DNA from: Syntrophales bacterium
GTDB taxonomy: Bacteria > Desulfobacterota > Syntrophia > Syntrophales > UBA2210
NCBI GenBank assembly: GCA_023228425.1
Contig: JALOBE010000005.1
Span: 30,986 to 94,985 of the forward strand
Direction: 5' to 3'
Length of the DNA stretch: 64,000 nucleotides
The translations under genes were made by a program, and so were the position numbers. The notes beneath the pieces were generated by a model that worked only from the letters and a program-made list of their open reading frames with translations, made no database searches and was not told the origin of the DNA. Below, in pieces: positions 61,055 to 62,806 of the stretch. The stretch's first letter is position 1, and each line of letters starts with the position of its first letter.

Positions 61055-61642
61055 TTAAACAGGTAAGTACGTCCCTCTTGACACCATTCTTTCAGGCATC
61101 ATGGCCCCTGAATAGCCAGACCTCATTTTTTCCCAAAGGTACGTGGCAGCACTCTCTATCGTTTCAAGCTCTTTTATAAACCACTGAGACGACTCGAAGG
61201 TCTCTTTTGCCTCACCGGCCCAATGAAGGAAGGAGGAAATAGTCCCCCAGTGTTTAAGGAGCTTTTCATGCTCCCATTCAATTAGTGGAGGACTGTTCGG
61301 GATGAGTGAGAAAATAGTCCTGGTAAAAATGACAAGCTGACGATAATCGGGACTGAGCTTACGAATAATCTTCGCCAACTTGATGCCTCTGCCTTTGCAC
61401 TTTTCATATTCTTTCCGGTCAAGTTGACCCCCTACGCTCATGATTAGTTCCTCAAAAAGCAGATGCTCAATTGCCAGCCGAATCAAAGAATAACCTTCCC
61501 GATATAATATCGAGTAGTTGACGATTGGCGAAATCAGGGGCTTGCATAAAGCAAACTCAGCGCAAGGGTACCAAAAAGAGAACGTTGCTATTGACATCCT
61601 TGACTCGGACCTCGCCGGTGCCGTACTCGACTGTTTTTCCAT
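61055..61642 (-). CDS. Hypothetical all-helical protein (cassette-borne); start uncertain
   Basis: 195-aa ORF in a low-GC region. Likely starts at an internal Met (61597 or 61441), since the 5' end overlaps the upstream lipoprotein gene. Confidence 0.5.
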   Translation of the reverse strand: MEKQSSTAPARSESRMSIATFSFWYPCAEFALCKPLISPIVNYSILYREGYSLIRLAIEHLLFEELIMSVGGQLDRKEYEKCKGRGIKLAKIIRKLSPDYRQLVIFTRTIFSLIPNSPPLIEWEHEKLLKHWGTISSFLHWAGEAKETFESSQWFIKELETIESAATYLWEKMRSGYSGAMMPERMVSRGTYLPV

Positions 61643-61871
61643 CTTTCAGGATCACGAAATAGTCGGCTCTGTCCCTAGTCCAGCCTGTTACAAGGCGGTG
61701 AGAGTATTTTAGCGCCTCATATTCACCTCGCGCTTGATAACCGTCTGGATTACCCAAGGTCTGAATTACTTCCTGTTTTGGCATTCCCGGTCGGAGACGT
61801 GACATCAACTCGCCGGTAGCACAACCGGTCAAGATGAAAAGGATGGCAAGCACTGCAGCGTATTTCTTCAT
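61557..61871 (-). CDS. Small lipoprotein with a BamE/SmpA-OmlA-like domain
   Basis: Lipobox ILTGC after a signal peptide. GMPKQEVIQTLGNPD motif. SD GGAGGAG. Starts 17 nt after the cassette boundary. Confidence 0.65.
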   Translation of the reverse strand: MKKYAAVLAILFILTGCATGELMSRLRPGMPKQEVIQTLGNPDGYQARGEYEALKYSHRLVTGWTRDRADYFVILKDGKTVEYGTGEVRVKDVNSNVLFLVPLR

Positions 61872-61887
61872 GTGTTTTCTCCTCCAA

Positions 61888-61952
61888 ACCTAACGAAAAG
61901 CTCACCCGGAGCGGGCCAGCGGCCCGCGATCGGGTGCAGCGGTTGGTTATGC
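61888..61952 (-). other. Integron attC recombination site (65 nt)
   Basis: Minus strand: GCATAAC (R'') - CAACCGCTGCACCCGATCGCGGGCC GCT GGCCCGCTCCGGGTGAGCTTTTC - GTTAGGT (R', fits GTTRRRY). The arms are imperfectly paired and the 5' arm carries an unpaired extra G. Sits 66 nt after the stop of ORF 62019..62684. Confidence 0.8.
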
Positions 61953-62780
61953 CAATTTACTTTAATCTTATACACTTATAGTCACGCTTATTGCCCAAGT
62001 TGTTTTATCTTGAGTAAACTATGACAGAAAAGAATAGTCCCTTGCAAATGGCTTTACGTCTATTCCGTCAGTGCCAGGAACCTGCACAAACAAGCCTCTA
62101 CCTCTGCTGACCACATTAAATTTGAGCTGCCCCTTAGATTCGCTCATATCTTTACCATATTTCTCAAAAAAATTCTCCGGAAGAGGAACATCTATAACTT
62201 CTCCATTTTCGCGCTGGCATAAAAGCACGGCATGATCAAAGCCTCCAGCTGGCAAACCAAGAAACCAACGATATGGTTGTCTTTCTGTAGCAACAGCAAG
62301 GCCAACCAGTTTTCCTGACCTAGTACGAAATATTGTCTTTCCTTTAATCAACTGGAGGTGGATACCTTCTGCCTCGCGTTTTCTTAAGAACTCACTACGA
62401 ATTTGTTCTCCAAGCACTCTTGAGGCAACCATCTGCGCTGATCTTGACCCACTAACAGGGGTGGTCACAACACGCCGAGTTTTTGATTGTGTTATTTGTA
62501 GAGTGCCACTTTTCAGTCCTTCAAGTTCTGAAGTAATTTGTTTATGGCGAGAAATAAGATTTTCAATTTTTTCTAATTTTTCACTTTCTGCCAAGACAAT
62601 GTCGGTTTTCCCTTCACTAGCCGCTTTGGAGATAGCCGATAATATTTTGTTTTTCTCGTCTTGAAGCTCTGTTAAAGTACCCATGCGATGACCTCCTGAG
62701 TTAAGTTATATTTTCTATGACTCATAAGATAACAAAGTGCAAGTGCAGTGTCAAGTGTTTTTTTATTCATTAGGGCATAA
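61894..62780 (-). mobile_element. Complete integron gene cassette (887 bp, one ORF plus attC)
   Basis: Begins with TTATGC (62780-62775), just after the G of the upstream core site, and ends at the G of GTTAGGT. Its first six bases are the exact complement of its own attC R'' (GCATAA), as expected for a cassette. Confidence 0.7.
62019..62684 (-). CDS. Hypothetical protein (cassette ORF): N-terminal coiled coil, C-terminal globular domain
   Basis: 221-aa ORF with SD AGGAGG 8 nt upstream. No motif recognised. Confidence 0.6.
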   Translation of the reverse strand: MGTLTELQDEKNKILSAISKAASEGKTDIVLAESEKLEKIENLISRHKQITSELEGLKSGTLQITQSKTRRVVTTPVSGSRSAQMVASRVLGEQIRSEFLRKREAEGIHLQLIKGKTIFRTRSGKLVGLAVATERQPYRWFLGLPAGGFDHAVLLCQRENGEVIDVPLPENFFEKYGKDMSESKGQLKFNVVSRGRGLFVQVPGTDGIDVKPFARDYSFLS

Positions 62781-62806
62781 CGCTTGAGTTAAGCCGCGCC
62801 GCGAAG
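62775..62806 (-). other. 3' half of an attC site, truncated at its apex
   Basis: Minus strand: CTTCGCGGCGCGGCTTAACTCAAGCGTTATGC, ending in core GTTATGC. The partner 5' arm is absent and the sequence changes at 62807. Confidence 0.75.

What the first reader, a model, noticed from the sequence alone, without database searches (positions are those of the whole stretch)
61055..62806. Integron-type gene cassettes (attC array) with no integrase in view
A textbook attC lies at 61888-61952 (minus strand GCATAAC...GTTAGGT) with a long imperfect stem carrying an unpaired extra G. It sits 66 nt after a 221-aa ORF. A second core site (GTTATGC, 62781-62775) lies 887 bp upstream. The first six bases of the cassette (TTATGC) are the exact complement of the R'' box (GCATAA) of its own attC, the signature expected when a circular cassette is linearised at G/TT. 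A second cassette begins at TTAGGT (61893) and carries a BamE-like lipoprotein and a 195-aa unknown. The region is low-GC (about 42%), and all three proteins are uncharacterised. The integrase and attI, if present, would lie beyond the IS elements past the right edge.
Basis: partly seen in the sequence, partly recalled or inferred. Interest (0 to 1): 0.7.

Follow-up and report, generated by a model that had tools for sequence, protein, structure and literature searches.

The report
Integron cassette-array remnant without integrase
This stretch is a real but broken piece of an integron in an uncultured Syntrophales bacterium: two mobile gene cassettes with their recombination sites, cut at both ends by insertion-sequence debris and with no integrase nearby, which is a known and fairly ordinary kind of element.

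Summary
Window 61888-61952 (minus strand) is a canonical 65-nt attC site. It has the exact arm geometry of 17 clinical attCs. It is the only hit in 64 kb to a covariance model built solely from those 17 sites (32.6 bits, E 1e-5). The "second core site" at 62775-62781 is the end of a truncated attC. Its surviving 29 nt are identical to the 3' half of attC(aadA1), and an IS256-family remnant cuts it in its loop.

Cassette 1 (887 bp) carries a 221-aa ORF with its own promoter. It recurs in other genomes with the same GTTATGC/GCATAAC boundaries and different neighbours. Cassette 2 carries a lipoprotein gene plus a remnant of a 233-aa-family gene. It has lost its 3' end and its attC. Intact copies elsewhere end in an attC whose R'' is ACCTAAC, as the boundary rule predicts.

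No integron integrase or other tyrosine recombinase is found in the window or in 8.7 kb beyond it. That extension instead holds IS256 and IS1380 remnants and a second, oppositely oriented cassette group with two attCs. This is an IS-eroded, integrase-less cassette array (CALIN/SALIN type): a new member of a known kind, of modest interest.

The parts
62775..62806 (-). Truncated attC: only the L'-R' (3') half survives, and its R' core GTTATGC forms the 5' junction of cassette 1.
   Evidence: Positions 62778-62806 are 29/29 identical to the 3' half of attC(aadA1) and 28/29 to attC(aadA7). The segment matches 3051 plasmid records, 919 of them at >=99% identity. Identity stops abruptly at 62806/62807, where the IS256-family end begins. 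The missing 5' half is absent from the window and from L002.
62726..62754 (-). Cassette-internal sigma-70-type promoter of the 221-aa gene: TTGACA, 17-nt spacer, TG-TATCTT.
   Evidence: Consensus scan, 10 of 12 matches with an extended -10 TG. The block is conserved in all homologous loci (alignment). Function is inferred.
62019..62684 (-). Cassette 1 ORF, 221 aa, uncharacterised. The cassette itself spans 62780..61894 (887 bp).
   Evidence: No hit in Pfam, NCBIfam or PADLOC. 216 homologues, mostly from Desulfobacterota metagenome-assembled genomes and genomes. The AF2 model (pLDDT 85) shows an N-terminal helical hairpin plus a C-terminal domain that resembles PD-(D/E)XK restriction endonucleases such as NhoI, Eco15I, DpnI and PvuII.
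61888..61952 (-). Complete 65-nt attC of cassette 1. R'' is GCATAAC (61952-61946) and R' is GTTAGGT (61894-61888). Extrahelical bases lie at 61937 and 61930. The crossover point is between 61894 (G) and 61893 (T).
   Evidence: Covariance model R1: 32.6 bits, E 1.2e-5, the only hit in the window. Geometry 9/9. Expected by chance 0.04 per 64 kb. DNA fold z = -3.8.
61557..61871 (-). Cassette 2, first gene: a 104-aa lipoprotein with the lipobox LTGC. The cassette starts at TTAGGT (61893).
   Evidence: Translation. The BamE Pfam hit is weak and sub-threshold; phrog_3135 matches at 1e-5, function unknown. Homologous cassettes in L026-L029 share the same 5' junction, GTTAGGT|TTGGAGGA...ATG.
61085..61480 (-). 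Cassette 2, second gene: a remnant of a 223-233-aa protein family. It corresponds to residues 64-195 of P0122. The 5' part has a deletion of about 148 nt, and the last 38 codons plus the attC are missing.
   Evidence: 86% identity over 132 aa only. Intact two-gene cassettes with the attC ACCTAAC...GTTGGGC occur in L026-L029.
61054..61084 (.). 31-nt sequence at which cassette 2 breaks off, probably a solo IS end.
   Evidence: It is 93.5% identical to L002 7884-7914, in direct orientation. That copy lies 12 nt past the stop codon of the IS1380-family transposase remnant. Reading it as an IS terminus is an inference.
62807..63636 (-). IS256-family element remnant. Its transposase covers profile positions 123-332 of 338, so the N-terminal third is missing. 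Its intact terminus abuts the cut attC. The inner boundary is approximate.
   Evidence: Pfam Transposase_mut 1.3e-40. NCBIfam transpos_IS256, 213 bits. The same 80-nt IS/attC junction appears in four separate assemblies.
63637..64000 (+). IS1380-family element remnant. It is frameshifted, lacks its N-terminus, and continues about 800 nt past the window edge. The left boundary is approximate.
   Evidence: NCBIfam transpos_IS1380 hits on L002 7927-8559 and 8639-9052. Gene table of L002.

Best explanation
**What it is.** Window 61054-62806 (minus strand) is a fragment of an integron gene-cassette array. It sits in the genome of an uncultured Syntrophales bacterium and has been eroded by insertion sequences.

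**Order on the minus strand.**
1. The 3' half of an aadA1-type attC, left when an IS256-family element inserted into the loop of that site.
2. Cassette 1 (887 bp): a promoter-bearing 221-aa gene plus a complete 65-nt attC.
3. Cassette 2: a lipoprotein gene plus a damaged second gene. It breaks off at a 31-nt IS-end-like sequence and has lost its own attC.

**Mechanism (established integron biology; inferred here).** The bottom strand of an attC folds into an imperfect hairpin with two extrahelical bases. A tyrosine recombinase, IntI, recognises that hairpin and cuts between the A and C that pair with G|TT of R'. attC x attC recombination excises a cassette as a circle. attI x attC recombination inserts it.

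**Current state of this copy.**
- No intI lies within at least 61 kb on one side and 10 kb on the other.
- The upstream partner site cannot fold.
- Cassette 2 has no attC.
- Both cassettes are therefore effectively frozen. Only the attC at 61888-61952 remains a potential substrate for an integrase supplied in trans.
- Cassette 1 does not need the integron Pc promoter, because it carries its own.

**History (inferred).** The upstream part of the array, possibly with attI and intI, was most likely removed by the deletion that fused the IS256 and IS1380 remnants. The same events left a second cassette group facing the other way beyond the window.
For: **The attC is real.**
- It is the only hit in 64 kb (both strands) to a covariance model built exclusively from 17 class-1 integron attCs taken from plasmids: 32.6 bits, E 1.2e-5. 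That is within the range of genuine sites such as attC(dfrA37) at 36.3 and attC(OXA-21) at 30.8.
- Its arm, spacer and bulge spacing is identical to all 17 reference sites.
- The chance expectation is 0.04 per 64 kb.

**The half-site is an attC.**
- It is 29/29 identical to attC(aadA1).
- The IS256 terminus abuts it directly.
- The junction is identical in four independent assemblies.

**The cassettes are mobile units.**
- The 221-aa gene is bounded by the same GTTATGC 5' junction and GCATAAC R'' in Geoalkalibacter halelectricus (inside an F-type conjugative element) and in metagenome-assembled genomes (MAGs) of Desulfurivibrionaceae, Desulfobacteraceae and others. The flanking DNA and neighbouring cassettes there are unrelated.
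- In L056 it is flanked by attCs on both sides, at 35.4 and 31.4 bits.
- In L015 a group II intron has inserted into that attC, as attC-specific introns do.
- Cassette 2 occurs intact in L026-L029 within an array of at least 8 cassettes. It has the same TTAGGT start and an attC whose R'' is ACCTAAC.

**No integrase.**
- tblastn with IntI1 finds nothing in the window plus 8.7 kb (best E 4.8).
- The same search detects an IntI at 46% identity and generic tyrosine recombinases at 25-30% in control loci.

**More of the array lies beyond the edge.**
- attCs at L002 3525-3584 (60.7 bits; 56/60 identical to attC of aac(6')-IIa) and at 6334-6411 (19.3 bits) lie on the opposite strand.
- L002 is identical to the window over the 11,982-nt overlap.
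Against: - Only one complete attC lies in the window. [quoted passage not shown]
- IntegronFinder's own attC model and its intI_Cterm profile could not be run. My model has rough E-values and a training set biased towards clinical sites.
- Cassette 1 has its own promoter, whereas cassettes rarely contain promoters (Cury et al. 2016).
- No recombination has been demonstrated.
- The order of IS events is inferred from the final arrangement only, as is the idea that intI was lost by the IS256-IS1380 deletion.
- 78 kb to the left of the window and 9 kb at the right end of the 159.8-kb contig were not examined. Nor was the rest of the genome.
Confidence: 0.9

Rival explanations
1. The cassettes still belong to a working integron. 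IS-mediated rearrangement split the array, and a functional intI-attI platform lies elsewhere on the same chromosome or on another replicon. It can still use the attC at 61888-61952, and the two attCs beyond the window, in trans.
For: Cury et al. 2016 report that about half of CALINs occur in replicons or genomes that encode IntI, and that rearrangements can split integrons. Two cassette groups diverge from an IS cluster here. The attC is structurally perfect. Only 72.7 kb of the genome was examined.
Against: No IntI or other tyrosine recombinase is found in 72.7 kb. None of the 26 genome loci that carry the 221-aa cassette has an IntI within 10 kb. Cassette 1's upstream partner site and cassette 2's attC are destroyed, so these two cassettes cannot be excised cleanly even if IntI is present.
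Confidence: 0.25
2. The cassettes arrived by integrase-mediated insertion at a secondary, non-att genomic site (the SALIN route). On this view there was never a resident integron at this position.
For: Loot et al. (bioRxiv 10.1101/2022.09.11.507474) show that such insertions are frequent. In Geoalkalibacter the same cassette has GTTATGC upstream with no recognisable attC before it, which fits that route there.
Against: In the window the cassette is preceded by half of a genuine attC, not by ordinary genomic DNA. It is followed directly by a second cassette joined at a canonical G|TT junction. More cassettes with attCs lie 4-7 kb away. This is what an array looks like, not a single insertion.
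Confidence: 0.08
3. The hairpin at 61888-61952 is an ordinary terminator or REP-like palindrome that happens to be flanked by AAC and GTT. On this view the 'cassettes' are ordinary genes.
For: It lies just downstream of an ORF, as a terminator would. Rfam has no matching family. The genome does contain other palindromic repeats, for example at 60606-60699.
Against: There is no T-tract after the stem. The covariance-model hit is unique in 64 kb. The bulge spacing is exact. The chance expectation is 0.04. The boundaries are conserved across unrelated contexts. An attC-type group II intron has inserted at the homologous site.
Confidence: 0.02
4. The arrangement is a metagenome assembly chimera formed at repeated IS or attC sequences.
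For: The source is a metagenome-assembled contig. IS elements and aadA-type attCs are repeats that are prone to mis-joining.
Against: The identical 80-nt IS256/half-attC/cassette junction is present in four separately assembled data sets from JGI, ENA and two Logan runs. So is 2.3-2.7 kb of surrounding sequence.
Confidence: 0.03

Closest known systems
CALIN / SALIN elements: clusters of attC sites, or single attC sites, lacking an integron integrase (Cury et al. 2016, PMC4889954; Néron et al. 2022, PMC9024848; Loot et al., bioRxiv 10.1101/2022.09.11.507474)
   Same: Genuine attC sites and cassettes occur with no intI within 4-10 kb. The cassettes are of unknown function and not resistance genes. 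IS elements are associated. One proposed origin is loss of intI or rearrangement of an array.
   Different: The window fragment has one complete attC plus a half-site, so it falls between the SALIN and CALIN definitions. Here the erosion can be read directly: an IS256 end sits inside an attC loop and an IS-like end truncates the last cassette. For most CALINs no such trace is seen.
attC(aadA1), attC(aadA7) and attC(aac(6')-IIa): the 60-nt 'Xanthomonadales-like' attCs of class 1 integron resistance cassettes (Ghaly et al. 2021, PMC8352920)
   Same: The half-site is 29/29 identical to attC(aadA1). The attC beyond the window (L002 3525-3584) is 56/60 identical to attC(aac(6')-IIa).
   Different: Here these attCs are attached to non-resistance cassettes (a methyltransferase, and an unknown lost gene) in an anaerobic Syntrophales genome. 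There is no IntI1 and no class 1 conserved segments, and the plasmid database has no match to 60500-62810.
Class 1 integron cassette attCs with G at the first bulge: cmlA, estX, dfrA15 and blaVIM
   Same: The complete attC at 61888-61952 shares their layout, R''-5 nt-GCT-G-CAxCCG-A..., down to the GCT/AGC triplet of cmlA and estX and the GCATAAC R'' of blaVIM-5.
   Different: The central stem sequence is unrelated. The 3' spacer is 5 nt, as in estX and dfrA15. The cassette cargo is different.
Group IIC-attC introns and IS elements that disrupt cassette arrays
   Same: An ORF-less group II intron sits in the attC of the homologous cassette in L015. An IS110-family element splits attC(aadB) in the reference locus L022. 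An IS256-family end sits in the attC here.
   Different: IS256-family elements are not known (from my own knowledge) to target attCs specifically, so this insertion is probably fortuitous.

Membership tests
Integron attC site (59-base element) | Inverse core R'' (RYYYAAC) at the 5' end and core R' (GTTRRRY) at the 3' end, mutually complementary | tested here: met
   The pair is GCATAAC and GTTAGGT. There is one departure from RYYYAAC, the same as in attC(blaVIM-5). In circular form R' would be GTTATGC, a perfect 7/7 complement of R''.
Integron attC site (59-base element) | Imperfect palindrome with an unpaired central spacer and L''/L' stems that carry two extrahelical bases at fixed spacing | tested here: met
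   The site has a 5-nt spacer, 3 bp, a bulge, 6 bp, a bulge, then a stem. It pairs 9/9, identical in layout to 17 of 17 reference attCs. It is the only such site in the window, against 0.04 expected.
Integron attC site (59-base element) | Significant score against an attC covariance model | tested here: met
   Home-built model R1, trained on 17 independent clinical attCs, gives 32.6 bits and E 1.2e-5 as a unique hit. IntegronFinder's own model was not available.
Integron attC site (59-base element) | The folded bottom strand is recombined by an integron integrase | not testable with these tools
   This needs a conjugation or in vitro recombination assay.
Integron gene cassette | A discrete unit bounded by G|TT crossover points, whose first six bases complement the R'' of its own attC | tested here: met
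   Cassette 1 pairs TTATGC with GCATAA. Cassette 2 starts with TTAGGT, and its intact homologue in L027 has R'' ACCTAAC.
Integron gene cassette | The same unit is found in different arrays or contexts with different neighbours | tested here: met
   Cassette 1 is seen in the window, L008, L033/L058, L044, L056 and L016. Cassette 2 is seen in the window and in L026-L029.
Complete integron | An intI gene (a tyrosine recombinase with the IntI-specific insertion) within about 4 kb of the attC sites, together with attI and Pc | tested here: not met
   tblastn with IntI1 finds no hit in the window plus 8.7 kb (best E 4.8), while controls are detected. attI is not searchable, because it has no general consensus.
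CALIN (IntegronFinder definition) | At least two attC sites clustered within 4 kb on one strand, with no intI nearby | tested here: inconclusive
   On the minus strand there is one complete attC plus one truncated half, 823 nt apart. Two more attCs lie on the other strand, 4.3 and 7.1 kb away beyond the window. Taken strictly, the window fragment is a single attC (a SALIN) with a remnant.
Class 1 (clinical) integron | IntI1, the 5'-conserved segment with attI1, and the 3'-conserved segment (qacEdelta1-sul1) or a Tn402 tni module | tested here: not met
   No IntI1 is present. 60500-62810 has no match in 72,556 plasmids. Only the attC sequences are shared.

The most novel reading that the evidence does not exclude
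The 221-aa cassette may be a previously unrecognised, self-expressed, single-gene nuclease system. It would combine a coiled-coil N-terminus with a PD-(D/E)XK domain resembling methylation-dependent restriction enzymes such as NhoI and Eco15I. It might act in anti-phage or anti-plasmid defence. It circulates among Desulfobacterota and neighbouring phyla both as an integron cassette and as cargo of conjugative and integrative elements.

A second point concerns the aadA1-identical half-attC and the aac(6')-IIa-like attC next to it. They may show that the 'clinical' Xanthomonadales-like attC pool exchanges cassettes with strictly anaerobic syntrophs.
Probability: 0.2. Interest if true: 0.5.

Novelty: new member of a known kind. 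Interest (0 to 1): 0.3.

Why it matters
- **A worked example of array decay.** An IS end sits inside an attC loop, a cassette is truncated at an IS-like end, and two IS remnants are fused by a deletion. This supports the 'loss or rearrangement' origin proposed for integrase-less attC clusters.
- **Reach of clinical-type attCs.** Cassettes carrying attCs identical or nearly identical to those of clinical aadA1 and aac(6')-IIa cassettes reach anaerobic Syntrophales genomes attached to non-resistance genes. That bears on where resistance-cassette attCs circulate.
- **Two cassette families to test.**
  - One is a promoter-bearing nuclease-fold protein.
  - The other is a two-gene lipoprotein cassette.
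  - Both have unknown function.
- None of this changes what is known about how integrons work.

Tried and rejected
1. **Rfam.** No family matched at gathering or permissive thresholds around the site. This is uninformative, because none of the 4227 Rfam families matched this attC even at permissive thresholds, so Rfam could not confirm or refute it.
2. **First crude attC scan** (R-box match plus MFE density). It found the site but gave many false positives in GC-rich coding DNA. I replaced it with the fixed-geometry test and the covariance model.
3. **Upstream ORF in L012-L014.** It looked like a divergent intI next to the 221-aa cassette (Pfam Phage_int_SAM_4; best NCBIfam hit 'integron integrase').
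   - It scores 67 bits against a cut-off of 265 and is 30% identical to IntI1 over the N-terminal half only.
   - It abuts an IS91-family Y2 transposase fragment.
   - I do not count it as an integron integrase.
4. **A degenerate attC downstream of the 195-aa ORF.** None was found with the model run with filters off. The explanation is truncation, shown by comparison with intact cassettes.
5. **The missing 5' half of the aadA1-type attC.** It is absent from the window and from L002.
6. **An un-interrupted version of the aadA1-attC/cassette-1 junction in metagenome contigs.** There were 0 matches. A looser boundary pattern gave three loci, none with intI.
7. **Similarity of 60500-62810 to plasmids.** None was found.
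8. **Function of the three proteins.** Pfam, NCBIfam, PADLOC, PHROGs and a PDB sequence search gave nothing usable.
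Full report
**1. The observation**

The sequence is as described. On the minus strand, 61952..61888 reads GCATAAC-CAACC-GCT-G-CACCCG-A-TC-GCGGGCC-GCT-GGCCCGC-TC-CGGGTG-AGC-TTTTC-GTTAGGT.
- It starts 66 nt after the stop of a 221-aa ORF (62019-62684, minus strand).
- GTTATGC lies at 62781-62775, 887 bp upstream.
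- The six bases after its G (TTATGC) are the exact complement of GCATAA in the R'' box.
- As single-stranded DNA the site folds into one long imperfect hairpin. The + strand gives -20.6 kcal/mol, z = -3.8, with 0 of 200 shuffles as stable. The minus strand gives -19.6 kcal/mol, z = -2.8.
- GC content of 61055-62806 is 44.6%, against 52% for the whole window. Cassette 1 alone is about 42%.

**2. Is it an attC? An independent test**

Rfam returned no match for this site, so I built a reference set.
- From annotated class 1 integrons on plasmids (loci L001 and L019-L025) I extracted 17 different bona fide attCs. They belong to aadB, aac(6')-Il, aac(6')-IIa, blaGES-1, arr-6, dfrA22, blaVIM-5, dfrA15, cmlA, aadA7, blaOXA-21, blaIMP-1, aadA2, estX, lnu(F), dfrA37 and aadA1.
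- All 17 share one layout: R'' (7 nt), a 5-nt spacer, 3 bp, one bulged base, 6 bp, one bulged base, a variable stem-loop, 6 bp, 3 bp, a 5-6-nt spacer, R' (7 nt).
- The window site fits this layout with 9 of 9 arm pairs. Its bulges lie at top-strand positions 16 (G, window 61937) and 23 (A, window 61930).
- Six of the 17 references (cmlA, estX, dfrA15, dfrA37, blaVIM-5, blaIMP-1) also have G at the first bulge. The base identity is therefore not unusual.
- Searching both strands of the window for this geometry with at most one R-box mismatch returns only this site. 100 dinucleotide-preserving shuffles give 0.04 hits per 64 kb.
- A covariance model built only from the 17 trimmed reference sites (alignment A1, model R1) gives a single hit in the whole window at E <= 10: 61888-61952, minus strand, 32.6 bits, E = 1.2e-5.
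- That score lies among those of genuine sites such as attC(dfrA37) at 36.3 and attC(blaOXA-21) at 30.8 and 25.3.
- Over 650 kb of other loci, nearly all of the model's hits fell in intergenic positions of cassette-like gene rows. One weak hit (13 bits, E 2.2) was the reverse strand of a known attC.

**3. The second 'core site' is half of an aadA1-type attC cut by an IS**

- On the minus strand, 62806..62778 reads CTTCGCGGCGCGGCTTAACTCAAGCGTTA. This is 29/29 identical to the 3' half of attC(aadA1) and 28/29 to attC(aadA7).
- The segment matches 3051 plasmid records, 919 of them at >=99% identity.
- Identity ends at 62806/62807. There begins the terminus of an IS256-family element whose transposase gene (62857-63576, minus strand) lacks its N-terminal third.
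- That remnant is fused near 63.64 kb to an IS1380-family remnant on the other strand.
- The 5' half of the attC is nowhere in the window or in the next 8.7 kb.
- The same 80-nt IS/half-attC/cassette junction is present in four separately assembled data sets. It is therefore not an assembly artefact.

**4. The cassettes behave as cassettes elsewhere**

Cassette 1 (62780..61894, 887 bp) carries the 221-aa ORF. It also carries a conserved promoter-like block (TTGACA-17-TG-TATCTT) and a strong ribosome-binding site. The protein family has 216 detectable members, mostly from Desulfobacterota.
- Alignment of the flanks of 12 loci shows that homology begins at GTTATGC in five independent contexts. 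These are the window, Geoalkalibacter halelectricus L008, Desulfurivibrionaceae L033, L017 and Desulfobacteraceae L044. The upstream DNA is unrelated.
- Homology ends at the R'' box GCATAAC. After it every locus has a different attC body with the same canonical geometry.
- In L056, L044 and L033/L058 the gene has covariance-model attC hits on both sides.
- In Geoalkalibacter the cassette sits in the cargo region of an F-type conjugative element. A 90-nt attC (25.7 bits) and a different gene follow it.
- In a Syntrophales metagenome-assembled genome (L015) the attC of this cassette is interrupted, right after GGCATAA, by an ORF-less group II intron of about 715 nt on the opposite strand (RF02001, 127.6 bits). 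L016 has the uninterrupted site (29.8 bits). This is the known behaviour of attC-targeting group IIC introns, a statement that rests on my own knowledge.

Cassette 2 starts at TTAGGT (61893).
- It encodes a 104-aa lipoprotein with the lipobox LTGC. The BamE label rests on a sub-threshold hit.
Its homologues are 223-233 aa long. The window copy aligns only over residues 64-195 of P0122, at 86% identity.
- So about 148 nt are deleted near its 5' end, and the last 38 codons are missing.
- In L026-L029 the intact two-gene cassette is preceded by a different attC that ends in GTTAGGT. It is followed by an attC that reads ACCTAAC...GTTGGGC (23.9 bits). L026 is a row of at least eight cassettes with a model hit between each pair of genes.
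- In the window the cassette breaks off at a 31-nt sequence (61054-61084). It recurs at 93.5% identity, 12 nt beyond the stop codon of the IS1380-family transposase remnant. I read it as a solo IS end, which is an inference.

**5. No integrase; what lies beyond the edge**

The 221-aa protein is encoded on a 159,781-bp JGI/NCBI contig, named at NCBI as a Syntrophales bacterium MAG. Locus L002 from that contig is identical to the window over 11,982 nt and extends 8.7 kb past the right edge.

That extension holds, in order:
- the rest of the IS1380 remnant;
- a relB/yafQ toxin-antitoxin pair;
- small ORFs;
- a beta-lactamase-fold (PF00144) gene;
- an 88-aa ORF;
- a methyltransferase;
- a GNAT acetyltransferase;
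- a TetR/outer-membrane-factor/RND efflux operon.

All of these lie on the strand opposite to the window cassettes.

The model finds two attCs there, on that opposite strand.
- One lies between the methyltransferase and the acetyltransferase: L002 3525-3584, 60.7 bits, 56/60 identical to attC(aac(6')-IIa).
- The other lies before the beta-lactamase-fold gene: 6334-6411, 19.3 bits.
- The two cassette groups therefore point away from the central IS cluster.

tblastn with IntI1 finds nothing in the window plus the extension (best E 4.8). The same search picks up an IntI at 46% identity and ordinary tyrosine recombinases at 25-30% identity in other loci. None of the 26 genome loci or 3 metagenome loci that carry the 221-aa cassette has an IntI within 10 kb either.

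**6. Interpretation**

- This is an integrase-less, IS-eroded fragment of an integron cassette array. In the terms of Cury et al. 2016 and Néron et al. [quoted passage not shown]
- Taken alone, the window fragment has a single complete attC. That is a SALIN in the sense of Loot et al., plus a half-site.
- The heterogeneous attCs, the mixed GC content and the aadA1-type and aac(6')-IIa-type attCs resemble arrays assembled by mobile integrons rather than a homogeneous sedentary array. Ghaly et al. 2021 class the aadA1 and aadA7 attCs as Xanthomonadales-like.
- Shown here: the sites, the boundaries, the recurrence of both cassettes, the IS junction, and the absence of intI in 72.7 kb.
- Inferred: the order of IS events; that intI/attI was lost in the IS256-IS1380 deletion; that the promoter is active; and that the attC is still recombination-competent.

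**7. Cassette cargo**

- None of the proteins matches a curated family.
- An AlphaFold2 model of the 221-aa protein was built from 45 aligned sequences (pLDDT 85, pTM 0.60). It has an N-terminal helical hairpin, a disordered linker (residues 61-81) and a C-terminal alpha/beta domain.
- Foldseek against the PDB places that domain with PD-(D/E)XK restriction endonucleases. The hits are NhoI and Eco15I (E 1e-4 to 1e-3, TM 0.42 on the target), DpnI and PvuII.
- This is a lead, not an assignment. The active-site residues were not mapped.

**8. Verdict**

1. The upstream site is a truncated aadA1-type attC.
2. Cassette 2 is a truncated two-gene cassette.
3. No integrase lies just beyond the edge.

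The element is a new member of a well-known kind. Interest is modest (0.3). Its value lies in the readable erosion history, in clinical-type attCs appearing in a Syntrophales genome, and in a widespread promoter-bearing nuclease-fold cassette of unknown function.

Noticed in passing
L015 10739-11346 (minus strand); compare L016 2828-2890: An ORF-less group II intron of about 715 nt is inserted in the attC of the homologous 221-aa cassette, right after GGCATAA of R'' and on the strand opposite to the cassette. Rfam gives RF02001 at 127.6 bits, RF01998 at 57.3 and RF00029 at 45.1. L016 carries the same cassette with an intact attC.
   Followed up: partly
window 60606-60699; also 23233-23326, 45757-45845 and 49033-49053: A palindromic element of about 94 nt (TTTTGTCATTTCGA...TCGAAATGACAAAA) is repeated in the window. 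One copy is 96.8% identical and two more are partial. It looks like a small MITE/REP-like repeat of this genome and is unrelated to attC.
   Followed up: partly
L002 3045-7834, equivalent to about 64.85-69.64 kb just beyond the window's right edge: A second cassette group lies on the opposite strand: relB/yafQ, small ORFs, a PF00144 beta-lactamase-fold protein, an 88-aa ORF, a methyltransferase and a GNAT acetyltransferase. It has attCs at L002 3525-3584 (56/60 identical to attC of aac(6')-IIa) and at 6334-6411. The stretch between the two attCs would be an unusually large three-gene cassette of about 2.75 kb, or else internal attCs have been lost.
   Followed up: partly
L012 1832-3316 (the same arrangement occurs in L011, L013 and L014): Upstream of the 221-aa homologue lies a divergent 180-aa ORF. 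It is the N-terminal half of a tyrosine recombinase. Its best NCBIfam hit is 'integron integrase', but at 67 bits against a cut-off of 265, and it is 30% identical to IntI1. It abuts the C-terminal two-thirds of an IS91-family Y2 transposase. A near-perfect 120-nt hairpin lies between it and the cassette promoter. Whether this is a decayed intI or an IS91-associated recombinase is unresolved.
   Followed up: partly
window 62019-62684 (minus strand): The AF2 model of the 221-aa cassette protein (pLDDT 85) has a C-terminal domain with Foldseek hits to methylation-dependent PD-(D/E)XK restriction endonucleases (NhoI and Eco15I), DpnI and PvuII. The gene also occurs on a conjugative element (Geoalkalibacter) and on an integrative element next to DNA methyltransferases (Desulfopila, L010).
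   Followed up: partly
window 57168-59573 and 56040-56942 (minus strand); 60133-60492: Immediately left of the cassette remnant lie a glycyl-radical enzyme (PFL-like, 801 aa), its radical-SAM activase and a carboxymuconolactone-decarboxylase-family gene. These appear to be ordinary chromosomal metabolism genes, which suggests the array fragment is embedded in the chromosome rather than a plasmid.
   Followed up: no
window 5000-21000 and 23000-24000: Long stretches have 44-48% GC, against 52-63% in the flanks. This suggests other horizontally acquired islands in the window. They were not examined.
   Followed up: no
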